A DNA stretch of 64,000 nt, the filler included, from Sanchytrium tribonematis (lineage: Eukaryota), in assembly GCA_018985235.1 (NCBI GenBank). It is 7 parts of 7 records of this genome, joined end to end, with 100 filler letters (N's around TTAATTAATTAA, not from the genome) between each part and the next. Parts side by side here need not be neighbours in the genome. Positions count along the whole stretch, not along the records: positions 1 to 9,325 come from JADGIG010000331.1; positions 9,426 to 18,747 come from JADGIG010000332.1; positions 18,848 to 28,158 come from JADGIG010000333.1; positions 28,259 to 37,556 come from JADGIG010000334.1; positions 37,657 to 46,953 come from JADGIG010000335.1; positions 47,054 to 56,324 come from JADGIG010000336.1; positions 56,425 to 64,000 come from JADGIG010000428.1. One strand, given 5' to 3'. Shown one piece after another: positions 4,256-61,613 of the stretch (positions are counted from its first letter, which is position 1; the number at the start of each line of letters is the position of its first letter). The notes below the pieces were generated by a model. The model made no database searches and was not told the DNA's origin. It saw only the letters and a program-made list of their open reading frames with translations. The translations under genes and the position numbers were made by a program.

Positions 4256-7200
4256 TTATTGTGTTGATTCTGAGATAGTAGCAGAGGATTTGGCTGCAGG
4301 ATTTAGGGTATCGTCGTCGTAGATCACTAGTCTATTTTCAATGTTATTATTAATGTCTTTCTTCACAGCAGCATCTTGAGTAAATTTAGTGTTTTTCACA
4401 ATAACTTCACATTTCTTTAAAAGATCCTTTTCAGAAACACCTTCTGTCGACTCATTCATAAGAGCAGTAATCTCCACCGGTACCATAAGAAAATCGTCCT
4501 GCCATATCATCAAGGACGTGATGGTCTGAATCGCCCACAAGCTGTCTTCTCTTGCAGGCTCTTTTGATTTGGAGTACAGAATATTTGGAGCTATTACAGT
4601 TGATATGTTATTAGTGTCCATCAAGCTTCCATTGGAACCGTCTTCGCGATATGCAAATTGGGCCAGTTCTTTGAAAAATAGAAGCAAAACCTCCAATAAA
4701 TCTCTGTTTGCTTTTGGCAATAAGCAACAAGCCAAGTGAAGCACTTTCTTTTGAACTGCCAGATCTTGGATTTCTAAATAAGTTCAAACTACTTGTTACA
4801 GATACAAACAACTTGTACAATTTGTACGTCATTAATGGTTCGGGTAATTCTCTCAGAAATTTTTTCATAATTGCAGCTAGTTGAATTTCATTTTCATTTT
4901 CACAAACATCAGGATTGTCTTGCAAAGCGGGATCTTTATCTAAAATGTCGCATGTGTCTTTTACTTTTTTAATATTCCCATTCAATCTAAAAATACCTTC
5001 ACTATACAAATCTAAATTAGAAAAATATACTTTTTTTCTTTATAGCTCGTATGGACTTGTCAACAAAACACGGAACTCTTAATCTTCCCGGTCCAGCCCC
5101 AAGATTTGAGTCTATTCCATATCTTTGCGTCAAAAGTTCCAAAGAAGATCCAAAAAGCTGATCTCTTCCTTTGGGCTTTTTAACGGTCTTTACCAATTTG
5201 ACTAAAAGAGCTTCCTTTCTACTTCCAATTGCTTCTAACAATTCTTGGCGGCTGACGTGTTCCTCGACGTATGGTGATATAATCAAAACTGCAAAATGCT
5301 GTATTATAATGTGCTCGAGCGAACTAAGTTCCGACATGTATCTTTGAGGTACATTTTCGTATTGAAATGCCAATGTATTATCAGTAACGCTTACTCTTTG
5401 AGGTGCTTTAGAGAGACCCAGTCCGCGATTTTTAGTATCATCTTTTGCCTTGCTTCCGTTTCCAATTGATCCTTTTCTTACTAATAAAACAGGCTCATCA
5501 TCTTCCTCAACACCAGTGGGATTGTTCACAGGAGCTATTTGTGCAGCAGGATCATTAAGTTTGTCTCGAGATGCCATATCACTAATTTTATCTTTAGAAG
5601 GACTTATTGAAAGTTTCTTTTTGCTTGGACTCTTCTTTAAAATACCACTCAAATTATTGCTGATACTTGGTGATCTTGGTCGATTAGCCAAGTCTGGATT
5701 ATCTTCCTCAGCAGCTAATTCGTCCTGTGTCTTTGATCTTTTGAACATTTTCTGAGAAACTCTTCTCGCAAGTCCCTTTTCGGCTTTTTGTTCGTCTTCT
5801 ACTTCCCCTTCTTTTTCTGCTGCTTGCTGCTCTTTTCCCTGAAGCAACTGATGCAACCGTCGCAGTGCAACTCTTAACAAAAATACATATTGACCCAACT
5901 TTGTAATTTTTGTATATCCAAATGATTTAACATCATCAAAATTCGAATTTCTGTTCTGACCCTTCCATGTAGATTCTATAATTTCTCTTGATTTCTTATC
6001 TAAAGGGAAACACTTTGAGTGCCAACGAAATCCAATCAAATTATCAACAATTGAATCGTCATCAATGGTTTGTCGACATAGAGTACAGAGATCTGCATGT
6101 AAATCATTGTGTAATCTATCCATAGGAAGTGGTTCCTTTTTTAAAAGACTCATGGTGGTTTGTGGTAATGGTGCAACGTATGAGGGTAAATTTGATTGAA
6201 GTGGTATCTCAGTCACTAAAGAATTCCATATATCTGCCAATTCCATAACGGCTGCTGTGCCTTTGTGTTCAAGCATCAAAGTCATCACCACACAAGTGCG
6301 AATCAAAACTTTAAGATATTGAGCCATGCTTGTCACCAAACTTAACAATTCTTGAGTAGCACCAATCTTCTTGATCATATCTTGTTGAGTATGGCTCAAT
6401 AAAGTAAAAAAGTGTATCATCTTTTTTGCCAAAAATTTACATTCCTTTTGTTCATCAAAGGCAGTTTTTTGCTTATTAAATTTATCAAGACATTCAAACA
6501 AAACTTCGACATGATTCACGAATAATGCAGCTTGTTCTAGTCCCGCAGAGTAATTATTTGCTGTAAAATTTTGAAGGAGTTCTCCAATAGTATTTGTTAA
6601 TGATTCTTCAAAAGCTGTCAATGTGTGCCATAATAAAGATATTGTTTCTTGCACTTTCAAGTACATCTGAAGGACTTGTTGCTTTGGCAATGCAGAATTG
6701 CTTAAATATCCTAAATATGCTGGTAAATCTTCTATTGGTATGCCATCTAATGAGCTATTAAGAATCAAGGGAGTTCCTGGTACTTTCGATTGCCTTGGAT
6801 AAAAAAGAACATTCCAAGTTTTGTATAACATGTAGCATTCCGGATGCCAACATTGGTTAGTAGATGTTTCTACAAATTGATTTAAAATGGGCAAAATGCA
6901 TCCAACACATTTCATAGCAAAGTATATTGAGTAGTGGTATTTGCAAACTACAGACATCCCGTTCGGATTATCTATAGTTGCTGGCTTTTGCAATGCAGTT
7001 TCCAAATCAGAATGCTTAACAGTGAAATAGCTGGCTTGTTTATCAAATGGAGCCTTACAAATCGCGCAAGTAAAGCAATGTAAGTGATATTTTTGTTGAT
7101 TAAAAGTAACATGGGAAGTTTTAATAAGCTGATTGCAGTGTGAGCAAATCAATCCTTTCTCTTTAAAATAATCTTGTTCACAGAATGGTTGTTGGTTCAT

Positions 7201-7329
7201 GTGGAAAAACCTGTCGCTGACGTTCTTCCCGCATTTAACACACGTGAAGCAGTCTATGTGAAAGGCCTGATCAAAAGCCTTGATATACTTGGAATTAATT
7301 GGAAGCCCACACTTCGAACAAACTCTCAT
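4256..7329 (-). CDS. LIM-domain RhoGAP (Lrg1/Rga-type), 3 exons (7329-5031, 5011-4793, 4773-4256), 1011 aa
   Basis: Tandem N-terminal LIM domains; GAP domain rebuilt by removing two 19-nt introns: IKKK-N-LYSEGIFRLNGN and VT-K-IQDLAVQKKVLHLACCLLPKANRD. Confidence 0.93.
4774..4792 (-). other. 19-nt spliceosomal intron (phase 1) GTAGTTTGAACTTATTTAG
   Basis: GT..AG; removal joins ORFs 4611-5009 and 4256-4744 in frame within the RhoGAP domain. Confidence 0.92.
5012..5030 (-). other. 19-nt spliceosomal intron (phase 1) GTATATTTTTCTAATTTAG
   Basis: GT..AG, contains the in-frame TAA; removal restores the EGIFR arginine-finger region. Confidence 0.93.
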
Positions 7330-9777: not shown

Positions 9778-10905
9778 TTATTGATAATCACGCGTTTTTC
9801 GCCGCTGGACAGTTTTTATAGTTACATTGTAATCATTTAAATGGTCAAGTGATTGTGCCACAGGACTTGGCTGCATGTCATCATAAAAATCCAGTAGGTG
9901 AGCATCTCCAAGTTCTCTAGGATGTTGCTTATTCTTTACATAAAATATAATACCTCCAAACAGATATAATAATCCGCACAAAATGCAAATCAATCCTAAA
10001 TAAGTATTTCGACCTCCAAATATATTAGTAGTTGTTAAAATGAATGTTTTCGAGCTTCCATAACTAGTCATGGATGGATAATTGTCATTAATGATAAGTC
10101 GATAATATCCTGGTTGCAATGACTGGTCCATTTGGGCCCAAAGTTTTCGGAATTTTGGAAAAGGACTAATTAATGACCATACACGGAATGAATTACTAGT
10201 TGTAATATTTGAAATATTATCTTTAGTATAATTGACGGCCCAATTGACAGGTGGAATCACATCACTTGGATCGTAGTCAGTGTTTTTAAATAAATCATCT
10301 CTGCTTTTCCAGTCTTTAAGCGTAATTTTGTTGTTTTTGTCAAGTAATAAGTTTGCACTGTCTGAAGGATCCGGCTCCGATATTCTCGGAATAGAACTGA
10401 GTCTTATAAGAGTATCGTTGAAAATTGTGTTTGCTATTCTGCCACAGGGATAGACAATTTTTGAATTTGTAACTTCATCGCATTCGGATAATTGAGAAGC
10501 ATCTTTAATCGCTTTTCCTTTAAGCTGATTAAATGATATACTTTTAGCGTAGGACCGAGCTGACTGATAAAAATTATCTAACTGGTAATATAAAAATGGA
10601 TTATTGATAGTTTCTGGGACATAAAAATCAATAATGCATTGTTTTATTCCAGCATTATATCTGGAGGTCCAGCCCAAATTGACATCTTTCAAGGGCGATG
10701 ATCCTATATAGATGTAATCAGTATCTAATGGAGTTGTGTCACAATTGGTATAATCAATTTGAATTTCTGGTAAATTCCATGACATTTTAAGCACTGCAAA
10801 TCCGACAATTAAGAATACCATCGAAATAGTTATGAATATTAATATAATTTGATATATTTTGAGTACGAGTCTTGATCCGGGAATAGTTTGAGCAAAAAAA
10901 GACAT
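9778..10905 (-). CDS. CDC50: CDC50/LEM3 family flippase beta subunit
   Basis: Two TM segments; IDYTNC, YYQLDNFYQ..R.Y..S, YPCGRIANTIFNDT, FRKLW, FGGRNTYLG, HPRELGD. Confidence 0.93.
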   Translation of the reverse strand: MSFFAQTIPGSRLVLKIYQIILIFITISMVFLIVGFAVLKMSWNLPEIQIDYTNCDTTPLDTDYIYIGSSPLKDVNLGWTSRYNAGIKQCIIDFYVPETINNPFLYYQLDNFYQSARSYAKSISFNQLKGKAIKDASQLSECDEVTNSKIVYPCGRIANTIFNDTLIRLSSIPRISEPDPSDSANLLLDKNNKITLKDWKSRDDLFKNTDYDPSDVIPPVNWAVNYTKDNISNITTSNSFRVWSLISPFPKFRKLWAQMDQSLQPGYYRLIINDNYPSMTSYGSSKTFILTTTNIFGGRNTYLGLICILCGLLYLFGGIIFYVKNKQHPRELGDAHLLDFYDDMQPSPVAQSLDHLNDYNVTIKTVQRRKTRDYQ

Positions 10906-11601: not shown

Positions 11602-11625
11602 ATTATTGGCAAAATTAGATATGGC

Positions 11626-17771: not shown

Positions 17772-17904
17772 TAAAAGCATCTTTCAAGACATTTGACTTT
17801 ACGTTTCAATTCCGTTTCAATCATTAAGTATCATGGGACCAATTACGGGTATGCACGATTAGGTACTTTTAAATCAGCCGCTGTTGTTACCCGTTATATA
17901 GCCC

Positions 17905-18511
17905 ATGGTCCTCGTAAATCTTGAAGCAATGAATAAACTGAGTATTGAAAATGTTAGTTATTATGAAAATGGTTGCCCAGCCTTGACATTTAATGAATTA
18001 ATCGCATACTCTATGATTGAAATGCCAGACATGAAAACAACTATTTCACAAATATATGAATGGATATACTCTGTATTTCCTTATTATAGGCTAATTGACA
18101 AAAAGGTATTAGAGTTTTATTTAGTGGAAAGCAAACATTCGTCAAAATTTACAGACACAAAAGTATTTTAAAAGAACAACAAAGAAAGGCAACCTTTGGA
18201 CGTTGGATTTAAGTCAGAAGGATGCAATATGTCGACTGTTGAAGCCAAAACCAAGCTTGTCAATTAATACAAATGTAAATAATCTTGAAAATTTACTCCA
18301 CGAGCCAATATCACCACTAACAGTCTTGATGACTAGTTCTCAGTATCCTCAAATGCAAGAAAATTCTCCACTCACTCCATCCTTACTATACCCCATCAAC
18401 ATTTGTCCTAATTATACCAAAAATGTTTATTTACCAACAAGGTCAATCAGTCCTGATTTGTGTGAGGCTAACCCATTTAATACCGATTCGATACTATTCT
18501 GGGAGCCTTGA
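17905..18511 (+). CDS. Forkhead transcription factor, 2 exons (17905-18105, 18125-18511), 195 aa
   Basis: P.LTFNELIA..., QIYEWI..VFPYY, then after the intron WKANIRQNL..QKYF..KGNLWTLD. Confidence 0.9.
18106..18124 (+). other. 19-nt spliceosomal intron (phase 0) GTATTAGAGTTTTATTTAG
   Basis: Removal restores forkhead helix 3 (IDKK-WKANIRQNL). Confidence 0.92.
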
Positions 18512-28258: not shown

Positions 28259-28915
28259 GATAAGCATAATATAAATAATGCTTTTGCTGTAAAGAGGGCT
28301 CAATAAATCCATTTGATCCCCAAATTTAACTGACAATATGTCCAAATAAGGTTAGTCTTGGTAGCTTGTGGCCCGCAGTAGAAAATGTATATGGTAATGC
28401 GATCTTGGTGCCAAAAATTGCCATTTTCAAGCCCCTAATTACATTTAATATGTGGCTTGTTGCCCTCTTAAGCTCTGCTTTTAACTCCAATTTTTGTTTT
28501 CAATCACTTTTTGATGTTTCTAATTCCATTTTAAGCTCCTTTGAAGATTAAATGCTGTTTATTTCCATGAACCTATTCCAAAAGAGGATCATTTTTCACT
28601 ATAAAGGCTATTTACCTCCTTTCATGACCTAAATTTTTTATGGCAATTTACAATAAATTCTCGATAAAAAGATCGACTCTCACATTTGCTAATGTTGAAA
28701 ATAAGTGTTTGAATCGGCGAACCTATTTTTCATTATCGCAAACTACTTATAGGGATAATATTTTGACCAGTCAATATAAAATATACGATCAGGTAACTAG
28801 AATTTTGGTACCATTGCCACCTTAAGCATATGAAATTCCAGATCTTATGTCACAGAACCTCAAAAGTTTGCCAAAATCAACAATAATTTTTACCAAGGAG
28901 AAAACCTGTTACAAG

Positions 28916-41971: not shown

Positions 41972-43319
41972 ATGGATCCTTTCGAAGATTGGAAGCACCA
42001 GCGCATAAGGAATACCTATCGGGTACCTCAAAAATTTGAATCTTTCGTGGGAATGGGTTACCTGGTATGTTTGGATGCTTTCCTAGATACATTTACGACT
42101 TTACCAATTAGACTTTTTCAATCGCCCAAAAGGATTGACTATGCGCTTATTATTACTATTCTTATACTATCCTACTCTGTAAATATCGACATTGCATATT
42201 TGTACCATTTTGTTCGTGGACAAAGTGCCATTAAATTGTACGTAATATTTAACACATTAGAAATTGCCGATAAATTGTGCGCCAGCTTTGGTCTGGACAT
42301 CATTGATATAATTCTGTCTCAAAAGCTAAAGATTCAAAATAGAAAAGAGGTAACTTATTCCATAATATCTTTTTTTGGCGGTGTGCTTATTTTATGTGCT
42401 TACGGGGCGGCTCATACGATGGTGTTACTATTTCAATTAGTTGCTTTGAATGTAGCAGTAAATTCGCATAATAATGCACTGCTAACGTTATTAATATCAA
42501 ATCAATTCGCCGAGTTGAAAACGAGTGTATTTAAAAAGTTTGAAGCAGAAAACTTATTTCAGCTTGGATGCAGCGATGTTGTTGAACGATTGCAACTAAG
42601 TGTCTTTATCTTTTTAACATTTCTAAGGAATCTGACAGACTCTTCGGAGCCACAAGGACAAGACTTGTTGATTTTACCTGATTGGATATTGCCCCACTAC
42701 TTAATATTTGTTGTGGATCCTTTAATAGCGGTCCTTATAAGTGAATTTGTTGTTGACTGGCTTAAACATTCATTTATTACAAAATTTAATGGAATCAAAC
42801 CAGAAGTGTACCACTTATTTTCACAGGTCATTGCAAGAGATGTGCTAAAAAAATCTCATATTCCAGGTGCCACATCGAGACGACTGGGTTTTGTTATTAT
42901 ACCTACTACAGTTCTTGTATTTCGTGCTTATTTAGTTTGTCAAAAATATGCTCGATATTTTGCCTAGCTGGTTTCAGAATTCTGATTTAGATATATTCGT
43001 AAAGTCACCAGGTTTCGACAATTATAGCTATCTTTCATGCTTGATTGTGTTTTATATTTTACTGTGGATTGTTAGAGCTTTGACTAGGCATCAATTACTT
43101 CACAAATCAAAAAAATTAGCTAATCAAAAATCCATCAAAGTTGTGGAGACAATTGGTGGGCCCAGTGATTTTTTATACGCACCTGTGCACGCAATTCCTA
43201 AGCATGAAAACATTCCTAGAAAAGGCAAGTCTAATCAAGACGCTCACATGGAGAAACCGGAATTAAACTTAGAAAATATAGATCGATTTGCAATATGGAA
43301 GTCTAGGGTGCCTCTTTAA
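41972..43319 (+). CDS. TAPT1: TAPT1/Emp65 (DUF747) ER membrane protein, 2 exons (41972-42916, 42936-43319), 442 aa
   Basis: CLDAFL..FT.LP.R, YHFVRGQSAIKLYVIFN.LE..DKLC.SFG.D, SNQFAELK.SVFKKF, VDWLKHSFITKFN. Confidence 0.93.
42917..42935 (+). other. 19-nt spliceosomal intron (phase 0) GTATTTCGTGCTTATTTAG
   Basis: Removal joins TVL to FVKNMLDILP, in frame with ORF 42948-43319. Confidence 0.88.
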
Positions 43320-43328: not shown

Positions 43329-44415
43329 TTAAATTGCACTCAATTTATTAAAATTCATAAAATACTCTTTCGTCTCTTTACAAATCGATTTCTCGCAATG
43401 AGGACACCTTAAAGATAATTGATTTGACACCCTTTGAGAACTTAGCTTAGATTTAACAAGATTTGAGAGCGCCTTTATAAATGTAGGGTGAACATTGAGA
43501 GCTTCTGTGCGCTGAACATCCACAAATCCCTTATCGTGCGCATCTTTGATGTATTCTTCATCTAATTCAAAAAGAGTTTCAATGTGATCGCTAGTAAAGG
43601 CAATTGGAACTATCAACAGCTTTTTATGTCCCTGTTTAATATAATTCTCAATTGCTTTATCAGTTGCGGGCGCAAGCCATTGCTTAGGTCCTACTTTAGA
43701 TTGCCATATTACTCCTACATTAATTAATTATACGCCATGGATTTTCAAAATTTTTCATTACTAAAGAAGAAGTAGTTGCAACCTCATTCGCATATGTGTC
43801 CCCTCTTAAAATCGAGGAAACTGGTAGAGAATGCGCTGAAAACAAGATTACAACATCCTTATGATCTTTTGGAGCATAATGTTTGGAAAGTGCTTTCTGT
43901 ATTAATTCTTGGAAGGATTGAACCAACAAAGGCTCGTCATACCATCTATCAATTACCGACCATTTGATTGTTTTTTCGGGGTCTACGCGTTTAAGTGTCT
44001 TATACAATTCATTCAAAGAACTTCCTGTGGTGGAGCAGCTGTATTGCGGATATTGACTAAATGCAATGGCTTCTGTAATTCCGTCTTTCTTCATATTTAA
44101 TATCATTTCTTCCGTATAAGGTGGAGCATATCTGAATCCAATATAGGATTTAATCGGAATATTATCTCGCAGTAGCTCCTGTTGCAATAAATCGCCCTGT
44201 TTAGTAGTCCAGTCAAAAATAGGGCTTCCGCCGCCAATTGCTTTGTATTGCTTTTCAATTTTGGGAGAACGTCGTCTTGCGATAAAAGGAGCCGAGAATT
44301 TTTGAAATGGCAGCTTTATGATATCCTCGTCAGAAAACAGATTGAATAAAAATTTATGTACATCTTTTAAAGTACGTGGACCACCCAGGTTGAGAAAACA
44401 TACTGCTTTTGTCAT
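43329..44415 (-). CDS. HEM15: Ferrochelatase, 2 exons (44415-43734, 43714-43329), 355 aa
   Basis: LNLGGP, QYKAIGGGSPI, QYPQYSCSTTGSS, LFSAHSLP, after the intron WQSKVGP, VPIAFTSDHIETLFELD, C-terminal RCPHC...C. Confidence 0.97.
43715..43733 (-). other. 19-nt spliceosomal intron (phase 1) GTATAATTAATTAATGTAG
   Basis: Contains the in-frame stop; removal restores NPW-R-VIWQSKVGPKQWL. Confidence 0.94.
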
Positions 44416-47053: not shown

Positions 47054-47403
47054 GAAAAAATTATTGTTTGATTTATTAAAATAGGCTAAAAGTGAGATCA
47101 GTCAATAAAAATGGTATGGTATGGACACACTTAGTAGGCAGTAAGGTTTGTTATTTATGACATGCATTGATGGAATTTTTATGGATCATTATGACTTGAG
47201 GATCATTTTGACCTACATGGCAGATGGGTAGCTTATAAAAAGCATCTAGTGTAAAACATATTAGTCCTCATAAAAACTGATTTACTGCGTATCATGCTAA
47301 AAAATGGGATGTCAAATGCTAAGCTTTAAAAATACAAGCTTTCCTTGGACGTTTTCTGAGAAGCATGACATTCACATGATACTAACGTATGTGGCTTTGT
47401 ATG

Positions 47404-47411
47404 TATAAATA
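47404..47411 (+). promoter_or_regulatory. Putative TATA box (TATAAATA)
   Basis: Consensus TATA 21 nt before ATG 47433. Confidence 0.55.
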
Positions 47412-47432
47412 GCTGAGACTCACTACTTTGAC

Positions 47433-50400
47433 ATGTTCATAGCGCACTTAGCACTGGTGAGCGCGGTTCCAACTCAGAACTTATTCGTTCCAACAACGCT
47501 TATGGATGACGCTGATATCGGTACTGGACAAATCATATTCAGTCAAACACATGCTTACAAAGTGGCAGCTGGTAAAATCCAAGTGGACTTTAATAATAAT
47601 TGGGTAAATTGCATGGATGTACCTGCATCTGGACAATGGTCTGTACAAGACGTGGACGAAACGCATGTAGTAATCGTAAATTACAAAATATCTGACTCTG
47701 CTGATAAGACAATGCTCTTGGACAACAACTCGAAAAGAATGTTGTACGTTCATAGATATGTGAAAAGTGCGACTGGTTGTACATTGGACGTTGGTGATCC
47801 AGTCTATGGAGGTCCTGCTGAATATTTTTGCAGTGTAAATAGTGAGAATATAGTCCATGTCGGTGCTTATGGTGTCGAATTTCCAGATGTAGATGCAAAC
47901 ATTAAGAAAGTCGATATAATTGTTGATGGATCAAATGCGTATGTTTATGCGGATGAAGCTGGCAACTCGGGTAAGCAATTGAGATTGTTTATGATGTTAG
48001 AGTTATTAAATCCAACCTTTCATGGCACTTGTTACGCTCAATATGATGACAACATTGATAAAAAAGTGTTTTTAAGTACTGATGCTTATCAGTGGCGTTT
48101 ATATGACTCTACCAATCAGCGCATTCAAGTAATTAAGTGGTTTGGAGCATTTTGGGACAGATCTTGGCGAGGATTCGGTCTTCAAGCTTTGTCTAAAATA
48201 ACTACTGCAGATGATGTCGGTACCCAGTGTTCTTTCTCGTCTAGCATAGGCAATGTAAATTCGGTGTCTAGCAGTGTTCAAACAGATTGGATTTATGGGG
48301 CTGAGTCATTCTTTGCTACTGATTCTCAAGTACTTTGGGGTGAAGATCTTGGAACCACTGGTTCTTGCGAGGTTACATACAAAGCTACACAACTTGCAAA
48401 TGCAATTTACTTTAGCGGACAGCATGCTGTCACCTATGACCAAGTCAATAAGATTGTTAAAGTTTATTTTGTAGATGGCCCCTTTTCAAATAGTAATTTG
48501 AACTTTCAAGCCTATGTCACTTATGATAATGTTATTTATGCTGACATTTCTGGGTCTCGAAATTCTTTTTCATTGTTCGTTATGCAAAATAATGGGGCTC
48601 TAATCTCAGCTAAAGTACACAAATACGCTCCTATCAAGGCTGCTGATCCTGCTGCATACTGGGCTCAATTTTACCTTCCAAATCAGGATGATGTACAAGT
48701 GGTCAATGGTCAATATGAAATCACATCTTCAAATCCATGGTTGTATAACGTTGTCCCAAACGTTGCCTCAGTTGGTTTGACTTTGACCCCATCTTTGGAT
48801 TCTGGAAGCAACTTGAAGATAACAATAACATCTGGTTCATTCTCATACGTCTTCCAGGTAGGACAGGCGACTCCTTTGACCCAAATTCAGGAATATACAA
48901 ATCTTATGGCATTAAAAGCTGCTGACATTACCACGACATTGGTTCAAGGTGGTGCTCCAACTGTAGAATTTAAATTTAGCACCAAGGCGCAGTATGAATT
49001 GATTACTAAATTCTTCAACAAGCCTTATCAAGTTCAATTTCCAACCTGTCAAGTAACTGACTGTACACCAAGTGATTCTGGCACTAAGTTTATTTGTAAA
49101 TTGCCTCAAGATTACAGCTCTTCAGAATACAATGGTAATTTGACCATCAATATCGGATCAGGAGATATCAAGAAAAACATTTCTTTGACATTGAACAAAG
49201 GAGTGAAGCCTAAATATTTCTATTCCGTTGCTGACTGCTCTGCTGGTAAAACATGTGATGTCACAATCTATGGAGACAACATGGGTGTCTTCGATACTTC
49301 TGTATTTAGCACTGCTAATTTACCTGCAGCTGCTCAAGCTTTATTGGATACTGCTTCTGATCCATTTGCAGGTCTTAGCATTCCTGCAGATGTTTTTGAT
49401 GATTTTTCATTTTATGACCCTACAATGATGGGCACGGACCCTTCAATGTGTGATCCAATGATGGGATGTGGAACAGGCACTGGGTCCGGATCTGATATGG
49501 GTACTGGTATGGGCTCAGGCTCAGGCTATTCCATTAACCCTGTCACTGGACGTCAAATTAATCCATTCACTGGATATGACATCAATCCTTCAACTGGCAA
49601 TGACATCAACCCAACAACAGGAAGAGACATTGACTTCATGACAGGTCGTGATATTAACCCTTCAACTTTGCATGATATCAATCCAATCACTGGTAATGAT
49701 ATTAATCCATTGACTGGATACGATATTGACCCGATCACTGGTCAAGATATCATCCCAAGTGGTGGGAATCCTGATAATACTCCAAGTAATGTAACTGTTC
49801 CTATGAAAATGAAGTGGCAAAAAAGAAGTGTCCCTGAATCTAGAATTCAAAAAAGAGCAGTTACTTTTGACTGGAACTCTCTACCTGACCCTGAATGTCA
49901 CAGACCTAAGCGTTTGGTTTTCACTGCTTTAAATGGTACAACATATGATGCTATGAAAGATAAGAAAGAAATGGCTGCTAATGGACTTTCTTGGGATAAA
50001 ACAGTCATTAAAGTGACTGTTGATGCTGCATTTGTCAATATGCCAGTTTCTATTATAAATGGAGATGATACTGTGAAAGTACCAATTGGAAATCCTGTTA
50101 TCAATGTTAATATTATGGAAGATCAAAATCTTTCTCCAAATGCTTCATACTGGTATTATAATGTTACTCTTGATGGATGGACCGTTGACAGAAACTGCAA
50201 AAAGAACACGACTTACACAACTACAACTAAACTTGTAAATGGTAAAAATGTCACTAAAACATCTCCTACCACAGTTAATCCAAAGAACTGTATGACAGTT
50301 CAATGGTTGACTCAACCAATGTCTGGTGGATTTAAAGTTGCAAATCCAATGAAAAACAACACTGACTATAGATTTGCTGACGATCCAATCGTTTTACAAA

Positions 50401-52656
50401 TTGCAAAAGACTTTATGACTTTGGAACAACCTGCAACCATGAAATTCTCAATTATCTATGTATCTTATGATGAAAATAGAAAACTTGACAAGACTGATAC
50501 AATCGATGCAAATATTAACTTGAATGTCACAAACACATTTGATCCATTTAGATTGACCACCAGTGGATTTTTAAACACAACTGTTAAACACAGTGAATTG
50601 TACAGAAATGATACTGCATCTATCCAATTAACTCAATTTGCATATTTAGGAAATGCCCCAGCTGGTGTTGGAGAAATTGGTATTGATAACCCAGATTCTG
50701 GATTTGGTATTCAGCCTATTGTTAGTGTTAAAGTATTGCAAGGTCCACCTGTTGGATATTTGTTGTTCTCTGGTTCACTTCCAACTGGCCAAATTAATGG
50801 TACCTTGAAAGAAAACCAAACCATCACTACAAATGCTGGTAATGACACAATCCCAACTATTTTGACTTGGAATTACAATAACACTTATGAGAAAGTGTTG
50901 AAAGCTTCTGACTTTCCTTTAAGATATGTATTAAATGTTTCTTTGGCCATTACTAAAAGCCAAAAATTGACTGTTGGAAATTGGCAAAAAGTTATCATTC
51001 AAATGGACTTGAAATGTATTAACAAGAAGTTTGCAAATAACTGGGGTGGTACTTATGATGACGAGAATGGTGTTAAACATATGGACCTGTGCTTGCCATG
51101 TATTGCAAATGGAAGATGTTTTGCAGATCCTAAAGATATGCCTGTTGGTGCTGATGGAACTTATCCGTTCTTTTACGCTAACCAATCTTTTGCTTTTGTA
51201 ACTTGTACTCCAGTTGATGGATGTAATGGAACCCCACAATGTAATGATGGTTACCGTAATTTAAACTTATTTAGAAGGCGTAATGTGCAACAAATGTGTC
51301 ACCAAATCTGCTTTTGGAAACCCTGTTTATTATAGATCTCCTGATCAAAAATGTAACCAATGTGACGAGAAAGCTAAAGTTATTCTATTTGTCCTAGTTT
51401 TCGCTTTTGCAATCTTAATTGCTGCTCGTTTGATGATGTGGGTTGCAAAGAAAGGAAAGAATTTTGGATCCGTGCGTATTTTGATTGATTACTTCCAAAT
51501 CTTGTTTATTTTTGGATCTTTCAAATTACAATGGCCTGCAGCCACTGCTGCTCAGATGCAGTTCTTCTCATTTGCTATGTTTAATCCTGAAATGGCTAAA
51601 CCAGATTGTTTGGACCCAAGCTTTGGTTATTTAGAAAAATTCACAATGATGATGCTTACTCCAATTATCTTTATTGGTGTTTTGGCTTTGTCTTCTATTA
51701 TCATGACTCCCCCATTTAATGCTCCAATTTTATATGTGATTAATATCTTTAGAGGATGGAAAAACAAGGAATTGGTAACCATTCAAACTACATGGAACAT
51801 GGAAATTTACAAGAAAAATGCAAAACAAGCTATTACTGCTTCTAATTTGTTCTTACAATTCGCATTTGCCAGTTTAGTTGGTTGGTCTTTGGGATTCTTT
51901 AATTGCAACAAAATCAATGACAATTTTGTATCTGAAAAAGAACCTTCATTAGTTTGTGGAGGAGATACCCATGCAAAATTAGCTCCGTTGGCTACCTTTG
52001 GTATAATTGCATATATGGGAGGTATTCCTTTATGGTTATGCGGATTGTTTTACTTCCAAAGACAAAAGAGATTCAAAGGCGCTACAATGACCTATTTGAA
52101 AGAAGTTGCTGCCGGAATCTTGAAGAGTGAAAATTGTTCATTTAATTACGAGCATCATTGGTTTATCGTTATCCAAATGTTGACCAAAACTATTTTAATC
52201 TTTGCTCAAATGTACTTCAAGACATTCAACGTACTTCAAGGTTTGTTTGTCCAGATTGCATTGTTGTTGTACACTGGATTTTTGTTATACTTAAAACCAT
52301 ACAAGAGCAAGAATGACAATATTGTGGATATGGCTGCTCAAGTTTCTTCGATTGTGACACTTTGTGCTGGTATTTTGTTTTATAATGCAAAATCTGAAGG
52401 TGTTAGAGGTTTGGAAGCTTTAGGTGGTGTTGTAGTTGCTGTAGTTTGGTGCAGTATCATTGGTATTATAATCATCATTGGTTACGACATCAGAACTAAA
52501 CGAAGAGAAGCTGCTGAGGCTCGAGCTGCTGCAAAATCTGCTGGTGAAGATGGTGGTAAGAAGGGTGGCAAACTAAGTAAATTAAAGGATGCTGCTGCCA
52601 AAAAGATGAAAATTGAGAAGAGCAACAATGTTGAAGCCCAAAAAGACGGCTTTTAA
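47433..52656 (+). CDS. Giant surface protein: signal peptide, about 1300-aa ectodomain, Cys-rich neck, multi-pass TM domain; 2 exons (47433-51255, 51275-52656), 1734 aa
   Basis: MFIAHLALVSA; intron removal gives CNDGY-Q-GVMCNKC; about 8 TM segments with ILIDYFQIL..WP..PDC and LKPYKS..N..D motifs. Confidence 0.85.
49533..49760 (+). repeat. 24-bp coding tandem repeat, I[N/D]PxTGxD, 9 full units plus 1 partial
   Basis: INPVTGRQ INPFTGYD INPSTGND INPTTGRD IDFMTGRD INPSTLHD INPITGND INPLTGYD IDPITGQD IIPS. Confidence 0.92.
51256..51274 (+). other. 19-nt spliceosomal intron (phase 1) GTAATTTAAACTTATTTAG
   Basis: Removal fuses ORFs 47433-51335 and 51283-52656 and restores the C..GY.G..C..C pattern. 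Confidence 0.9.
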
Positions 52657-52743
52657 TTGCAGATGTAAATAAATGTAATATTAATGTGCAAATTAATTTT
52701 TCGCCAATTTTGAAACTTTGGAACAGAAACAATCTTTTAAAAA

Positions 52744-54539
52744 ATGAGTACCAAAGGTGTAATGGTTTATATAAGAAAAAGACCTTTACTTGAAAATGAT
52801 GAAGATATTATTGATTGTCAATCCATAAATAAATTGGTAGTGAGTGACAAAAAAAATAAAGTTGATCTCACGTCATTTGAGGAAAAACACACATTTTACT
52901 TTGATAGAGTAATTGATGAAAAAACTGATTCAATTGGAATATCTGAATATGTCACACATGCAATGGCAGGAAATAGTTCCTTAATTTTTTGTTATGGACA
53001 AACTGGCTCTGGAAAAAGTTATACAATGTTGTCAGAGCATGGATTGGTATATACAGGATTGCAAGACGTTCTGACTTACTGCCCTGTTGCATTAAGTATT
53101 TTTGAAATATACCAAAATAATGTTCATGATTTATTAAATGATCGAGGGAAATGTGATATTCGAGAATATCAAGGCGAAATGATTGTTAAAGGGCTTACGG
53201 AAGTAATTATAGACATAGCGGATATTAAAAAAGCCAGAGAGGTCATTGAAAAAGCCCTGTTGACGAGATCGACTTCAGCCACCAATCAAAATGCTGACTC
53301 GTCAAGGTCTCATGCAATTATACAGTGCAAGTTACAAGCTGCTGTAGATCCTGGCTTAAATAGAAAAAAGCTGGATGTGCAAAAACAAGGTTGTATCACA
53401 TTTATAGATTTGGCAGGTTCTGAAAAAGCTCAGGATAGAGGAGAAACAAGTCAAAAAATTAGGATTGAAGGAGCCGATATCAACAAGTCTCTACTGGCTT
53501 TAAAGGAATGCATCAGAGCAATGGATTTGAAAAAGGGTCATACGCCCTTTAGGCAATCCAAGCTGACAATGGTTTTAAGGGATGGGTTTGTCGGATCTGC
53601 TAGAACCCTTATGATAGCATGCATTGCTCCCAATAGATCGAATTGTGAACACACGTTGAATACTTTAAGATATGCTGATAGGGTTAAAGAGCTAGACGAA
53701 GAAAAAGTCTCTGGAAAAAGTATTTTTGGCTTATATAGTGAATGCCACTTATTCGAATTTTCAAAGCCGACCTATGGAAGAACCAGTTTCTCCAATAGAT
53801 GACATGCTTTTAGATGAACACTCTTTAATGACCGATGTATCGCTATTAGAAAGTCCAGTTAGAAACGATAAGAAAAATTTAAAATCACAACCAAATTTAA
53901 ACTTCAGTAATGAGTCGGGTAGATCAAGGAAAAGATCTTCATCTCAAGATGCTATAAAATATCCCTATATTGATAATACAGCAATACCGCGGAAGACCAT
54001 TGTAAAGTCTACCTCAAGAAATTTTGAAAGCAGAAAATTGGACTCTTCACCGTATATGCAACCTTTGACTACCACCAAGCCATTACAAAGACCGCCTTCA
54101 TCGAGGTCTATTGAGGAGAATCCTAGAGTTAAACGCGAAACATTGATTAAAAATCCTCCAAAAGGAGATAAGACAGCTATTCCTACTAGAGTACTTCCTG
54201 AGATATCTCCGCAAGTTATTACTCCTCCCAATGCACAAAATCCAACGGGATCACCATCTCTTTTGAGTCCAAACATTTCACCTCATGAGGTGCGTGATAA
54301 AATGGATAAATTTATTATCGAACATCGGAAGTATATCCGTAATTTCTCCGATATGTATAAAAAGGTAGATGAATCTTATTTAGGATATGGATGTATTAGC
54401 ACAATTGACTCTTTCCCTGTCGTCGCAAAAAGATACAAGGACGGCATTCGATGAATATTTAAAAAATGTAGATGAACTTGCGGAACGAAAAATACAATAT
54501 GCAAATACTTTGCGTCAGTATATACACAGTCTAAAGTAA
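52744..54539 (+). CDS. Kinesin-13 family motor, 3 exons (52744-53719, 53739-54364, 54384-54539), 585 aa
   Basis: RKRPL, KVDLT loop, GQTGSGKS, SSRSH, DLAGSE, LKECIRA, PFRQSKLT, HTLNTLRYA; helical tail in exon 3. Confidence 0.93.
53720..53738 (+). other. 19-nt spliceosomal intron (phase 1) GTATTTTTGGCTTATATAG
   Basis: Removal joins SGK-M-NATY, in frame with ORF 53726-54454. Confidence 0.88.
54365..54383 (+). other. 19-nt spliceosomal intron (phase 0) GTAGATGAATCTTATTTAG
   Basis: Removal gives MYKK-DMDVLAQLTL...FDEYLKNVDELAERK, open to TAA 54537-54539. Confidence 0.87.
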
Positions 54540-54651
54540 ATTTGTTCATCGCCTGATGTGATTCATTTTAAAATTGCACAAACTGTAAAAAATTCCTGTT
54601 GTGTGACAACTAACTTTACAAGATTGCGTCATCTATTTTGAGGGTACGACA

Positions 54652-56324
54652 ATGGGAAAGTGGAAATGGCGAGGATTCGTCGTTATAATACTCTTAATAT
54701 CACTGCTATCATACTGTATCCTTGTGCCTGCGTATATACAATATAAACTTAATAGTTTTAATCTTAATGATATGACTATCAACAAAATGGAGATTGTTGA
54801 TAACAAAGTAGAATTCCAAGTAGAAATGCCATCGCAATTCTTTGTGCCAGCAACCGTTTTGTTGCCAAAAGTAGACGCAACTGTTTTATACCAAGATCAA
54901 GAATGGATGAAAGTTTCAATGGAAAATATAAAATTTAATTTAAAATACCCTAAACTCGATGGAATAGCCACCATGCATGAAACTGAAAATGAAGATGCAA
55001 TGAATGAGTTAATGGAAAATGGTTTTCGTGATCAATTTAGAATTGAAGCTGTTGTAAAAATACACTACTATATTCCCTGGTACACACTAAGTGTGTATAA
55101 GACTTTGAATATACCAGAAGTAAAAGCAGACGTGCTGAGCATATACAATTCGATGCCAGATTATATATTTACGCCCGAATCCAAATTAGAAATGAATCAT
55201 ATGGAAAATTTGACATCTATCATTGGGGAACTGAGTCATCCTATTCCAGAATTTGAATTTAAGCATTACAAAATCACTCATCAAAACGATAGTCATTTAA
55301 ACTTTGATTTGACAACAGAATTTCAAAATCCGTTGAAGACGCAAATATTTTTATCAAAAGTATCATTTGATTTAACAATAGACAACGAGAGACTAGCTAA
55401 AATGAATTTGCGAAATTTTAAATTGGCAGGAAACCAAATTAGTGTTAATTTTGGAATACATTGGGCAATTACTGATATGAAGAAACTTCAAAATGTTTTT
55501 CAAAAAGTTATATCAAAAACTCTCAGCAAACAATACAGCGATTTCAAGCTGGAGAATCTCTTTATGACTGCAAATATTGTGCGTGGAAATGTTGATTTGT
55601 CGATTCCTATTGGTAAATGGCTCCAATCTTTTAATTTATATGATGTCTTACATCAAAATTTATGGAATTATTTGCAATTTGAGGTTAAAAGTGAAGGTGA
55701 CAAGTTTAGAATGAATTGGAAATTTTCGATCCCGTTTATCTTCAAGATTGTGTCTACTGCTTTCCCATATAATGTTGAATTTGATATCAGCGGAATCAAG
55801 AATCACGATGGATTTATGAATTTGCAGCTGAGCAATATGAATGTTTTGATGGAGAACAGGGCTCTTACGATTTTTGGAACTGGCCTTGTTAAATTTTACG
55901 ACCATACCAAGGCTCTAGATTCTGCAGAACATTTAGGTGACATTTTCCACGACATGAAAACATTTTATATCTCCAAATTCAGCATTAAGAGTCATATCCA
56001 CAAAAGATCAAGTTGGCACAATGGCTTTCAAAATGTGCTGATCCCTGTGACTTTAAGCCCAATTGAATTAGATCAAATTTTCCATCATGTTTTAAGAGAA
56101 TTTAGTGCAAAAAAAGTTCGTGCCCACACTTATGTCAAAGGAAATGAATTTCATGTTCAAATGCAATCCTCATTCTACATACCCGTTGAAATTTCAGTTG
56201 ACAATTTAAACACCTGCTTTGATATAAAATTAAATGATTCGAAAGTCAATGTTTGTTTTGTCAATTTGACAATCAAAAATTCTAAAGTCACCAACGCATC
56301 AATAATATTTAAAGTTCAGGTCCA
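54652..56324 (+). CDS. Type II membrane protein with beta-rich repeats (DUF3712/Tag1-like), 3'-partial
   Basis: N-terminal TM; FQNPLKTQIFLSKVSFDL-type motif; runs into linker. Confidence 0.55.
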
Positions 56325-58802: not shown

Positions 58803-61613
58803 TTATTCAAACGCTCCAGTATAGTGCTGTTGTTTGGCCTTCTTTTTACGCGCATGTAGCCAATAATGACCATAAAATAACCCAATTATCAATACAAAAT
58901 TAAATAAAGCTCTAAAAATCATTTGCAATGTCCAATTAATGATCCATAAAGGCACATAGAATTTCACAAATGACACTTTTGAGATTATAGATGATTCGGT
59001 AGCCATCTGACTCTCATTTTTACTGTAAATACTAATCTTAATTGAATTTGTGATGAAATTTCTATAAATGACACGTGTTACAACTAAATAAAGAAGAAAT
59101 ACTCGGATTGCCTTGATTTTCAGTTGATTGTGAGCCATACATGTCTGAAATCTGACTAGTTGCTTTAACGAGTGATTCACTGTTAGACAGGGTCATTGGA
59201 TCTGTAGTCTTTGAAGAAAAGACATTGCTGCTTTTTAGGCTGCTGCTTTCCGCGCTGCTCAATGACAATTCTGTGGTAATTTGCTACTTCTCTGGCATAC
59301 TTTTTAAATAATACTTCTTACACATTGTATAATTGGCAATATTTGTATTATTTTGCAATGGATTATAGGACAAATCACAATTGGTTAATAAATTAGTGCT
59401 ATTTAATTGTACATCAAAAATATTGGTATTCCCTAGCACCAAGTCGGTTGGATTTTGTAAAATCAACTTGTCATTAAATGAGTTGCCTTCATATGCGTTA
59501 TCTCCAAGCACCACGATTTTCAAAGAAGCAGGAAAAGAAGGCAACGGACCAGTTAAATGATTTCCTTGTAATTGCAATTCTTCTAAATTGGGTGGTAAAT
59601 TTGGAATTGGTCCTATTACATTACAATAAGTCATTCTTAATATCTTCAAGGTACTTGGTAAAGATGGGAAAGATTGATTTAAATTAATATGATTCAGAAG
59701 CAATGTTTCTAATCCCTCTGAAAATACTGGCAATTTCCCACCAATATTTGTATTAGACAGATCAATCGTCTTGACGTATCCAGGAATAACTGGTAATCGA
59801 GCAGTCTGGTTAAATTCGGCGTAAGATATTGTTACTTTTTGCAATGATATTGGAAAATCTAAGACTGACATTGTGAAATTATCAACCGTTGTTAGTGGTA
59901 TGCTAATACCATAAAAATAAATTTCAGTCACATTTTGATTTGCACATGTCACAGCATTAATGGAATCACAACAATTCTTTTCAGCCTTGAAATTTTACCC
60001 CGCTTTTTGCAACAGATTCATAGTATATTTACAAGTCTCGAAATTGATAGGATCTGAATAACTTTGCAATTCATATTTGCAACTTGTCAAGTTTGTTAAA
60101 TCACTTACTGCGATATTATTCATTGTTACATCACAATTATAATTTGTGATTTTATTTAATGTCAATATTTTATCAATGAAATTACTTCTAAAATTAAATA
60201 CATAATAATCAATAGTCACAAAATTTGATAAATCAACAATTCCTGCTATCTTGTTGTAGGAAATCGAGATCGCTTTTAAATTATTTCCTTGTAATTGATT
60301 TTCAACAGAATCAAAATTATTGTTATCTGCGTAAAGTTGTTCCAATTGTCCCAAAAATGGAATAGTGCCATTTAATTGATTGTCAACCACATCAATACTT
60401 TTCAAATTAGTTGGTAATTTGCCAGTAATTGGGCCAGTCAATTGATTGAAATTTAAATCAAGAAATACCAAATTAGACAAACTGGATAAATCTGGAAATG
60501 ATCCACCAATGTTGTTGTTACTTGTGAACCTCAGACTAACTAAAGAGTTTGGTAATAGTGTAGTATTGAGGGTGCCATTGGAGGTTAAGTATTGTATTTT
60601 GATTCCAGTAATTCTATTTCCAGTGCACGAAATACTCCCAGTAATATCATTACAACAGCTATTTAAACTTGACAATTGACTAAATTTGTCTGGCTGTGTC
60701 AAATGCATATTTAGCTGTCTTAAGAATAAAATAAGATTTGGACAATCCGGGGATGGTGGGGATTTGTAGCTGATTTGACATCCTTTAGTCTGCAATCTGT
60801 TCAATTCATTCATATTATCAGGTTCAAAATGAATATTCCGAGTTGAGCATTGAGTTATTTTGTCTATATTTGGTATAAATAACCTATCAAAATAATTGGA
60901 GTTTATATTTAAGCTGGTGATATTTGGAGACGAGATGGTAAGATTCCCAACGAGTGAGTTGTCAGATAGAGCAAGAGATTTCACATTTTTAAAGTCTTGA
61001 TTTACAGACCCATAAAAGTTGCAAAATGATAAATCAAAAGTTTCAATAGTTTCTGCTAAATATGGGAATATTTTAAAGGGAGCATGTGATCCGCAGTAAA
61101 TATAATAGGCTACTTTTAATCCCGTTGCATTTAATGGAAAGATATCCATATCAGAATTTTCAAAATCAATATATTCCAAAGTATCTGGTAAACGAGGTAA
61201 AATTGGTGCTTCAAGATAACTATAGCAAAAATAACTAAAGTACGTAAGATTTGGTAATGTATACAATTCCAATTTGAGATGGAAAGTATACATCAAATCC
61301 ATGACTTTAAGCGTATCGGGTAATTGTTTGATAATCATTGATTTTTGACTAGCATACAAATCTAATACGCGTAATCGAGGTGGTAAATGGATCTCTGGAT
61401 ATGTTAATATGCTGTAATCATACAAAATCCCCAATGTAGCTCCGTAACCCTCTCATTTTCACAAATGACTCCAACGCCCAAACAACAATCTTTTTCATAT
61501 TGAATGAAATAATCTGTATTTGTGTATTTAATATCCAAATCTAATGCCATTCGAATCACAACTGGACAATCTATGGAAATAGCAACCAGAAATTTTAAAA
61601 GTAGCGCGTACAT
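58803..61613 (-). pseudogene. Three-module LRR receptor-like membrane protein, disrupted
   Basis: Signal peptide, three C...CC....C caps each followed by LRRs, Ser/Thr stalk, C-terminal TM plus KKK; 1-nt frameshift near 61430, in-frame TAA 59997-59995 and TAG 59286-59284. Confidence 0.78.
59084..59102 (-). other. 19-nt spliceosomal intron (phase 1) GTATTTCTTCTTTATTTAG
   Basis: Matches consensus; removal joins the stalk (QGNP-I-VTRVIYR) to the TM-encoding frame. Confidence 0.82.

What the first reader, a model, noticed from the sequence alone, without database searches (positions are those of the whole stretch)
4774..59102. Fixed-length 19-nt spliceosomal intron system in a fungus-like nuclear genome
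Seen: nine GT-AG introns in seven unrelated genes on five contigs (4774-4792, 5012-5030, 18106-18124, 42917-42935, 43715-43733, 51256-51274, 53720-53738, 54365-54383, 59084-59102) are all exactly 19 nt. Each restores frame, and several restore conserved motifs (RhoGAP EGIFR, forkhead helix 3, ferrochelatase WQSKVGP). I found no intron of another length. Established: introns this short are known from few lineages (chlorarachniophyte nucleomorphs about 18-21 nt, heterotrich ciliates 15-16 nt); fungal introns are normally much longer. Inference: an independently evolved, length-measuring minimal spliceosome. I do not know of a description in fungi but cannot search. Gene callers with a 20-nt or larger minimum intron would split all these genes.
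Basis: partly seen in the sequence, partly recalled or inferred. Interest (0 to 1): 0.93.

Follow-up and report, generated by a model that had tools for sequence, protein, structure and literature searches.

The report
19-base introns in sanchytrid fungi
Genes of this sanchytrid, an early-branching fungus, are interrupted by inserts of exactly 19 bases that are likely spliceosomal introns, shorter than the typical introns we found reported for any fungus or animal, and database proteins predicted without regard to introns stop short at them.

Summary
Confirmed. All nine segments are GTA..TAG, exactly 19 nt, and restore the frame. The motif GTA-N7-YTWATNTAG occurs 9 times at 19 nt, 0 at 14-18 and 20-25 nt; shuffles give 0.11. 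Five of nine junctions are fixed to the residue by homologues, including intron-less orthologues. The organism is a sanchytrid: it groups with Amoeboradix gromovi (SH-aLRT 100). Of 10 relatives' ORFs that end at these sites, 3 decode to a 19-nt intron (one from A. gromovi), 2 more fit, 3 are uninformative and 2 fit poorly. An invariant A at position 14 (-6) is the likely branch point, fused to the 3' site. 'Minimal spliceosome' is not supported: A. gromovi annotations hold 20 of 29 factors sought, U1-70K and U2AF included. No RNA or whole genome was available, so splicing and the genome-wide length range are untested. Ultra-short fixed-length introns are known in Stentor, Mikrocytos and nucleomorphs; four searches found no description in sanchytrids. 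This scan noted 25-32-nt introns in Rozella before, none in sanchytrids. A new, independent case at the short extreme for opisthokonts.

The parts
4774..4792 (-). 19-nt intron 2 of the LIM-RhoGAP gene (phase 1)
   Evidence: Best of 59 open-frame GT/GC-AG options against 7 fungal homologues, no gap at the junction; 3 of 3 sanchytrid relatives' ORFs end at this site; bridged without indel by an X1 contig
5012..5030 (-). 19-nt intron 1 of the LIM-RhoGAP gene (phase 1)
   Evidence: Best of 10 options; 3 of 3 sanchytrid relatives lack it and read straight across the spliced junction; bridged by an X1 contig
18106..18124 (+). 19-nt intron in the forkhead gene (phase 0)
   Evidence: Exon 1 residue 43 of 48 aligns to FOXP1 (2kiu) residue 42 and exon 2 starts at FOXP1 residue 48: exact abutment
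42917..42935 (+). 19-nt intron in the DUF747/TAPT1-like gene (phase 0)
   Evidence: Best of 16 options against intron-less relatives P0395, P0396; spliced protein 442 aa against 442 and 441 aa; A. gromovi tail decodes to a 19-nt intron at the same site
43715..43733 (-). 19-nt intron in ferrochelatase (phase 1)
   Evidence: Best of 6 options against 8 full-length homologues; 4 of 4 close relatives' ORFs end at this site; P0004 and P0121 decode to 19 nt followed by RVVWQS
51256..51274 (+). 19-nt intron in a 1734-aa membrane protein gene (phase 1)
   Evidence: Frame and motif only; bridged without indel by a divergent X1 contig
53720..53738 (+). 19-nt intron 1 of the kinesin gene (phase 1)
   Evidence: Frame and motif; relative P0242 (79% identical) ends at this site; bridged by X1 contig
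54365..54383 (+). 19-nt intron 2 of the kinesin gene (phase 0)
   Evidence: Frame and motif only; a donor 29 nt from the acceptor scores as well (19.3 against 18.8 bits) but would shift the frame; bridged by X1 contig
59084..59102 (-). 19-nt intron in an LRR protein gene that has in-frame stops upstream (phase 1)
   Evidence: Frame and motif only; host gene possibly a pseudogene
4256..7329 (-). LIM-RhoGAP host gene, 1011 aa when both introns are removed
17905..18511 (+). Forkhead host gene, 195 aa spliced
41972..43319 (+). DUF747/TAPT1-like host gene, 442 aa spliced
43329..44415 (-). Ferrochelatase host gene, 355 aa spliced
47433..52656 (+). Large membrane protein host gene, 1734 aa spliced
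52744..54539 (+). Kinesin host gene, 585 aa when both introns are removed
17883..17901 (+). Unconfirmed tenth candidate: 19-nt GTT..TTATATAG segment three bases upstream of the forkhead ATG, possibly a 5'-UTR intron
   Evidence: Relaxed scan, sequence context; no frame or homology test possible

Best explanation
The nine 19-base inserts begin with GTA, end with TAG, carry an invariant A six bases from their end and restore the reading frame when removed, and they are likely introns cut out by the ordinary major spliceosome, which would place both cuts by fixed spacing from that A. In detail: (shown) the 3' half is one fused signal, Y-T-W-A-T-N-T-A-G, with the A at position 14, 13 nt from the first G and 5 nt before the last; the 5' signal is only GTA; positions 4-11 are unrelated AT-rich filler. 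(Inferred) A14 is the branch nucleotide, giving a 14-nt lariat loop; the acceptor is simply the AG at fixed distance behind the branch point, so no scanning and little need for Slu7/Prp18; the donor is the GTA that lies 13 nt upstream of the branch point, because so short a donor signal cannot be told from its neighbours except by position. (Inferred) deletion bias in a compact parasite genome shrank introns to the steric floor of a largely complete spliceosome, after which position replaced sequence as the donor cue and locked the length; mis-spliced or retained messages carry early stops and would go to nonsense-mediated decay. The system is shared by other sanchytrids, and introns of this size are still being lost or gained among them.
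For: Sequence and chance controls. Homologue-guided choice among all GT/GC-AG options picks the called 19-mer in 4 of 4 introns tested this way; forkhead exons abut exactly on FOXP1. Intron-less orthologues act as natural cDNA: RhoGAP intron 1 in 3 of 3, TAPT1 in 2 of 4 relatives. Independent genomes break at the same sites: 10 relatives' ORFs; 3 decode to 19 nt with an A possible at position 14 (P0004, P0121, A. gromovi P0394), 2 have their stop at positions 12-14 as a Y-TAA branch site predicts (A. gromovi P0123, P0125). X1 contigs, some of a second haplotype, bridge five introns with no indel. Branch A at -6 matches Stentor (position 10 of 15; PMC9505925, passages) and Yarrowia lipolytica (2 nt between branch motif and AG; PMC2483917, passages). 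Slu7 is unnecessary at branch-to-acceptor distances of 9 nt or less (PMC10158995, passage). A. gromovi annotations include Prp8, SF3B1, U1-70K, Dbr1 and Upf1. Competing donors at other distances score as well yet would break the frame: 29 nt at 54355 (19.3 bits against 18.8) and 26 nt at 4799 (17.3 against 18.8).
Against: No RNA evidence of splicing, branch point or efficiency. Only nine introns; 9 of 9 allows up to about 28% of other lengths (one-sided 95%, hand calculation). Two of 10 relatives' tails (P0002, P0242) stop at intron positions 15-17, which the window consensus cannot encode; these may be 17-nt or 20-23-nt introns. The A. gromovi decode rests on three exon residues (F-I-N against F-V-K); a longer intron with an internal stop is not excluded. 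A. gromovi's ferrochelatase tail implies a GTT rather than GTA donor. Four of nine junctions rest on frame and motif alone. Slu7 and Prp18 labels are missing from the A. gromovi table, but so are Prp19 and Prp28, so label absence is weak. The spliceosome inventory is of a relative, not of the window's organism. X1 may be the source of the window and so is not independent.
Confidence: 0.82

Rival explanations
1. The introns are real, but 19 nt is only the peak of a narrow range (about 17-23 nt, perhaps with a few long introns), and the length differs among sanchytrid species; the spacing is a preference, not a rule.
For: P0002 and P0242 stop at intron positions 15-17, which fits a 17-nt intron or a branch site moved 3 nt downstream. 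Known cases span two to four lengths: Stentor 15-16, Mikrocytos 16-17, nucleomorph 18-21 (PMC10245619). Microsporidia keep rare long introns beside short ones (PMC6349667). The motif was learned from the nine.
Against: 9 of 9 in the window are 19 nt; 0 strict-motif hits at 14-18 and 20-25 nt, including 18 and 21 nt, which would not break frames; the three decodable tails from two other organisms all give 19 nt.
Confidence: 0.35
2. The fixed length is caused by a strongly reduced spliceosome (no U1 snRNP, few proteins), as in mikrocytids and microsporidia.
For: Nine of 29 labels sought are missing from the A. gromovi table: U1C, Slu7, Prp18, Prp16 (by KOG), Smu1, RED, Aquarius, Prp28, Prp19.
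Against: Twenty of 29 are present, including three U1 proteins plus Luc7 and Prp40, SF1, both U2AF subunits and the branching factors Cwc25, Yju2, Isy1; cactin, SNRNP40, Sub2 and Snu13 were seen in passing. Only about half the proteins are annotated and ORFs were called without introns (PMC8371127, sections 6 and 18).
Confidence: 0.12
3. The segments are removed by something other than the spliceosome (an endonuclease-ligase route, DNA-level excision) or are footprints of a small mobile element.
For: Patchy presence among relatives (RhoGAP intron 1 in 1 of 4, TAPT1 intron in 3 of 5); uniform length.
Against: GT-AG ends plus a branch-like A at -6; mean identity of positions 4-11 only 39% and no flanking duplication beyond 2 nt; no contig with the joined form in X1; Dbr1 and Prp8 annotated in the relative.
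Confidence: 0.03
4. Assembly errors or decayed genes that happen to be flanked by GT and AG.
For: Single-cell-type assemblies can be error-prone; one host gene has other in-frame stops.
Against: Nine sites share nine invariant positions; relatives from other assemblies break at the same residues; ferrochelatase is intact apart from the insert; X1 contigs agree.
Confidence: 0.02

Closest known systems
Stentor coeruleus 15-16-nt introns (PMC9505925, passages read)
   Same: GUA donor, AT-rich filler, branch A six bases from the end, nearly one length, largely complete spliceosome with U1 proteins.
   Different: Ciliate; 15-16 nt; branch region without strong consensus, whereas here Y11, T12, T15 are fixed; 8,806 introns annotated genome-wide.
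Mikrocytos mackini 16-17-nt introns (PMC10245619, passages read)
   Same: Parasite with reduced genome; very narrow length; conserved intron sequence; low intron density.
   Different: Rhizarian; only 17-19 spliceosomal proteins and no U1 snRNA identified; no introns in metabolic genes, whereas ferrochelatase has one here.
Chlorarachniophyte nucleomorph 18-21-nt introns, Bigelowiella natans (PMC6009652, PMC2483917, passages read)
   Same: Same size (19 nt cited as typical); GT-AG.
   Different: Endosymbiont relic nucleus, about 3 introns per gene, no discernible branch A or other motif; here a main nuclear genome, about 0.2 introns per gene, with a clear fused branch/acceptor signal.
Encephalitozoon cuniculi and other microsporidian short introns (PMC6349667, PMC2483917, passages read)
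   Same: Holomycotan parasites; short GT-AG introns with a CTAAY-type branch site near the end.
   Different: About 25 nt, a few dozen per genome, often at the 5' end, poorly spliced (under 20%); here 19 nt, mid-gene, in essential genes, predicted at over a thousand per genome.
Yarrowia lipolytica fixed branch-to-AG spacing (PMC2483917, passages read)
   Same: Fungus; branch A at -6 fused to the acceptor; no polypyrimidine tract.
   Different: Long introns (median 204 nt) and strong ACTAAC consensus; donor-to-branch distance is free.
Myxobolid myxozoan ultra-short introns (PMC13644364, first third read)
   Same: Opisthokont parasites with introns under 30 nt.
   Different: Animals; medians 22-27 nt; weakened splice signals; not single-length.

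Membership tests
U2-type spliceosomal intron | GT...AG ends whose removal restores the coding frame | tested here: met
   9 of 9; junction fixed by homologues in 5 of 9
U2-type spliceosomal intron | Branch-point adenosine near the 3' end | tested here: inconclusive
   Invariant A14 in a Y-T-W-A-T context, 9 of 9; resembles WCTRAY (PMC2483917) but with T in place of the purine in 7 of 9; no lariat data
U2-type spliceosomal intron | Removed from the mature mRNA | not testable with these tools
   No RNA run was listed
U2-type spliceosomal intron | Major spliceosome encoded by the organism | tested here: inconclusive
   20 of 29 labels found in the relative A. gromovi's table; window's own genome not held; no Rfam match in the window
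U12-type intron | Long conserved 5' site beyond the first three bases (feature recalled, no call) | tested here: not met
   Positions 4-10 vary freely
Ultra-short fixed-length intron systems (Stentor, Mikrocytos type) | Introns under about 21 nt confined to one or two lengths | tested here: met
   9 of 9 at 19 nt in 63.4 kb; 3 of 3 decodable tails in relatives
Ultra-short fixed-length intron systems (Stentor, Mikrocytos type) | The narrow range holds genome-wide | not testable with these tools
   No genome held; no relative's DNA found
Mikrocytid/microsporidian reduced-spliceosome type | Fewer than about 20 spliceosomal proteins, U1 components lost | tested here: not met
   U1-70K, U1A/U2B'', Prp40, Luc7, U2AF, SF1 labelled in A. 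gromovi; tested in the relative only
Chlorarachniophyte nucleomorph introns | No discernible branch A; located in a nucleomorph | tested here: not met
   Invariant A14; host genes group with fungi
Introner-like mobile introns | Near-identical copies with target-site duplication | tested here: not met
   39% mean identity at positions 4-11; flank repeats 0-2 nt
Sanchytriomycota (host lineage) | Groups with a named sanchytrid on a long branch | tested here: met
   68-76% identity to A. gromovi proteins against 30-57% to other fungi; clade SH-aLRT 100 in one quick single-gene tree of 28 rows; species not established

The most novel reading that the evidence does not exclude
Sanchytriomycota run a single-length, 19-nt intron system across their genomes (on the order of 1,500 introns), the shortest and most uniform in any opisthokont, with a spliceosome that keeps U1, U2AF and SF1 but measures exactly 13 nt from donor to branch point and has dropped the second-step factors Slu7 and Prp18. 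It would be a fungal model, close to yeast in protein homology, for how a spliceosome fits on a substrate shorter than its own footprint, and gene-loss claims for this phylum made from intron-blind proteomes would need re-checking.
Probability: 0.45. Interest if true: 0.85.

Novelty: new variant of a known kind. Interest (0 to 1): 0.74.

Why it matters
How a multi-megadalton spliceosome handles introns under about 21 nt is open; the known cases are a ciliate class, a rhizarian parasite group and an endosymbiont nucleus, all far from yeast and human structures. A fungal case lets substitutions in Prp8, SF3b, Cwc25, Yju2, Isy1 and the snRNAs be read directly against yeast cryo-EM models and against close long-intron relatives, and adds an independent origin for testing convergence (branch A at -6 in Stentor, Yarrowia and here). 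It also has a practical effect: the published sanchytrid proteomes were predicted by TransDecoder on genomic contigs (PMC8371127, section 18), and A. gromovi proteins in EukProt are cut at these sites (P0003, P0123, P0394). At 142 introns per Mb (95% interval 65-269) a 10-11 Mb genome would hold roughly 700-3,000, so presence/absence claims for this phylum may be affected.

Tried and rejected
Whole-genome scan: no genome held. RNA test: no RNA holder listed; one DNA run, X1, possibly the window's source. DNA of relatives: a junction-spanning pattern found 0 matches in metagenome contigs; the RhoGAP alignment found no locus in metagenome or genome contigs. Rfam: 0 matches in the window, so no snRNA to inspect. 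TAPT1 tree did not finish and the RhoGAP tree is the quick method only. GT..AG ORF-joining without any motif is too noisy to show the peak (12 at 19 nt, up to 14 at long lengths). Ten other copies of the 3' signal lack a GTA 19 nt upstream; the two nearest look-alikes lie inside open, conserved frames (9996-10013 in CDC50, 40419-40445 in an LRR gene) and were rejected. In-frame stops in the LRR gene could not be explained by consensus introns. Absence of Slu7/Prp18 labels was not counted as evidence because Prp19 and Prp28 are also unlabelled. Literature: searches for sanchytrid + intron, Sanchytrium/Amoeboradix/introns, Sanchytriomycota + intron and Amoeboradix + spliceosom gave no paper describing these introns; in PMC8371127 and PMC10459994 the only 'intron' hit is a reference title. 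Searches for 19-nt introns and for very short fungal introns listed no such fungal case. The main supplementary PDF and one spreadsheet of PMC8371127 were too large to read, bioRxiv supplements are closed, and subscription papers and database annotation pages are not searched; any of these could mention the introns.

Full report
Observation. The window is seven contig pieces of 7.6-9.3 kb joined by spacers, 34.7% G+C, densely coding, with roughly 42 genes by my count from the ORF list and Pfam scan. At each of the nine coordinates there is a 19-nt segment beginning GTA and ending TAG on the coding strand. Removing it gives one stop-free frame on both sides; keeping it gives a stop within 4-60 codons. 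Nine of the 19 positions are invariant (G1 T2 A3 T12 A14 T15 T17 A18 G19) and position 11 is a pyrimidine. Phases are 1 in six and 0 in three.

Chance. GTA-N7-YTWATNTAG has 9 hits at 19 nt, 0 at 14-18 and 20-25 nt, and 1, 1, 2 at 26, 27, 29 nt; 100 dinucleotide shuffles give 0.11 on average, at most 1. Because this motif came from the same nine, I also ran a test with only GTA/YAG ends and ORF joining: 8 at 19 nt, 0-1 at other lengths up to 47 nt, at most 4 up to 120 nt (the ninth has a last exon close to the cut-off). With ends only and no frame condition the excess is modest (27 against a shuffle mean of 16, max 24). Of 19 copies of the 3' signal in the window, 9 have GTA exactly 19 nt upstream.

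Junctions. For the four introns with full-length homologues in hand I enumerated every GT/GC-AG deletion of 10-80 nt starting within 40 nt of the called donor that keeps the frame open, and scored it against homologues. The called 19-mer ranked first of 6 (ferrochelatase), 10 (RhoGAP intron 1), 59 (RhoGAP intron 2) and 16 (TAPT1) options, with no gap at the junction; the margin is smallest for RhoGAP intron 2 (246 against 240 for a 16-nt option with a GTT donor). The forkhead exons abut exactly on FOXP1. The other four (large membrane protein, two kinesin introns, LRR gene) rest on frame and motif. Contigs of run X1, some differing from the window by about 1% as a second haplotype would, bridge 51256, 53720, 54365, 4774 and 5012 with no indel and no joined form; X1 may be the window's source, so this guards only against assembler error.

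Organism. In three searches the best named relative is Amoeboradix gromovi (ferrochelatase 76%, LIM-RhoGAP 68%, TAPT1 71%), with two to three unnamed environmental records at 54-78% and all other fungi at 30-57%. A quick maximum-likelihood tree of LIM-RhoGAP (28 of the 120 listed hits) joins the window, A. gromovi and two environmental rows on a long branch with SH-aLRT 100; it does not resolve where that clade sits among fungi. PMC8371127 (sections 6 and 18 read whole, other passages) places sanchytrids as a phylum sister to Blastocladiomycota, with 10-11 Mb genomes of about 35% G+C, and predicted proteins with TransDecoder on contigs. The window is therefore a sanchytrid other than A. gromovi; the species was not established.

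Relatives. Because relatives' proteins were also called without introns, their C-terminal tails read into any intron. Ferrochelatase: 4 of 4 close relatives end at the site (P0004 and P0121 are one 90% cluster); among the 120 listed hits no other ends there except one partial protein that reads across it. RhoGAP: 3 of 3 lack intron 1 and 3 of 3 end at intron 2. TAPT1: 2 of 4 lack the intron and 2 of 4 end there; the spliced window protein has 442 aa, the intron-less ones 442 and 441. Kinesin intron 1: 1 of 1 ends there. Decoding all 10 tails: P0004 and P0121 give 19 nt followed by RVVWQS (score 32 against 3 or less for other lengths); A. gromovi P0394 gives 19 nt followed by FIN, the only length other than the final stop; P0123 (A. 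gromovi) and P0125 stop at positions 12-14 after a pyrimidine, as a Y-TAA branch site at 11-14 would; P0003, P0124 and P0393 stop too early to inform; P0002 and P0242 stop at 15-17, which the window consensus cannot encode and which may mean 17 nt or 20-23 nt in another species. So the 19-nt length is shared by at least two other sanchytrids, is perhaps not universal, and intron positions are patchy.

Machinery. The A. gromovi sheet of supplementary file 4 of PMC8371127 lies whole within the stored part (the next sheet begins after its last rows). Of 29 spliceosomal factors sought by identifiers that I recalled, 20 have rows: Prp8, SF3B1, U1-70K, SF1, U2AF65, U2AF35, U1A/U2B'', Prp40, Luc7, Prp22, Cwc25, Yju2, Isy1, Dbr1, Prp17, Cef1, Brr2, a Snu114 label, Prp5, Prp2. 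Nine have none: U1C, Slu7, Prp18, Prp16 by its KOG number, Smu1, RED, Aquarius, Prp28, Prp19; for these the identifier itself could not be verified. Upf1 is present. This is not a mikrocytid-type minimal spliceosome. The lack of Slu7 and Prp18 would fit a short branch-to-acceptor distance (PMC10158995, passage), but Prp19 and Prp28 are unlabelled too, so it is a lead only.

Mechanism. Shown: a three-base donor, unrelated filler (39% mean identity at positions 4-11), and a nine-base fused 3' signal with an invariant A at -6. From the literature: branch A at -6 in Stentor (PMC9505925) and Yarrowia (PMC2483917). Inferred: A14 is the branch nucleotide; the acceptor is fixed by distance from it; the donor is fixed 13 nt upstream of it. 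The last step is supported by competing donors that score about as well but would break the frame (29 nt at kinesin intron 2, 26 nt at RhoGAP intron 2). I read the 'ruler' as the product of a steric floor plus weak donor information, as PMC10245619 discusses for mikrocytids, not as a new machine. None of this is tested on RNA.

Comparison and novelty. It works like the Stentor and Mikrocytos systems and has the size of nucleomorph introns, but differs from each (see Closest known systems). Among opisthokonts the shortest typical lengths I saw are about 25 nt in microsporidia (PMC6349667, passages) and medians of 22-27 nt in myxozoans (PMC13644364, first third); unchecked notes of this scan give 25-32 nt for Rozella. 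Searches found no description of sanchytrid introns, and 45, 63 and 69 no 19-nt fungal case; unread supplements and closed journals remain a gap. Papers seen: PMC8371127 (two sections, passages, searches in one supplement), PMC13644364 (part 1 of 3), and passages of PMC10459994, PMC10245619, PMC9505925, PMC10158995, PMC6009652, PMC2483917, PMC6349667; all others as search listings only.

Verdict. Real, lineage-wide in part, probably undescribed; a new variant of the known ultra-short intron systems and apparently the extreme case among fungi. Interest 0.74; what holds it back is that the kind is known from other lineages, that the sample is nine introns, and that no RNA was available.

Noticed in passing
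window:34149-35540 (-): 463-aa ORF tail to tail with the clathrin heavy chain gene on the same contig; no Pfam hit, but matches bacterial defence-type reverse transcriptases (PADLOC Drt6 E 5.5e-26, Drt4, AbiP2, AbiK; NCBIfam Drt4 and Drt3b far below their cut-offs). Possibly a horizontally acquired Abi/DRT-like RT in a fungal nucleus; the usual catalytic motif looks altered.
   Followed up: partly
window:40868-41389 (-): Mrr-type restriction-endonuclease domain (Pfam Mrr_cat E 1e-11; PADLOC type IV E 1e-7) between fungal housekeeping genes.
   Followed up: partly
window:25340-28157 (-): Ty3/gypsy-like pol region (RT, RNase H, integrase) broken by a frame change near 26930; no consensus intron there.
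   Followed up: no
window:58803-61660 (-): LRR protein gene with two in-frame stops and a frame change besides the 19-nt intron; probably a pseudogene.
   Followed up: partly
window:1-9325 and 47054-56324: X1 contigs differ from the window at about 1% of sites in long stretches, with short bubbles, as a diploid or mixed-strain sample would.
   Followed up: no
window:23259-25120 (-): Two tandem paralogues of about 270 aa, cysteine-rich, likely secreted, no Pfam or NCBIfam hit.
   Followed up: no
window:17211-17771, 1203-2318, 28826-34126: RPS14, primase small subunit and the 1.7-kaa clathrin heavy chain are each one open frame: no 5'-biased ribosomal-protein intron as in yeasts and microsporidia.
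   Followed up: no
window:14707-15204 (+): Small GIY-YIG nuclease plus zinc-knuckle gene.
   Followed up: no
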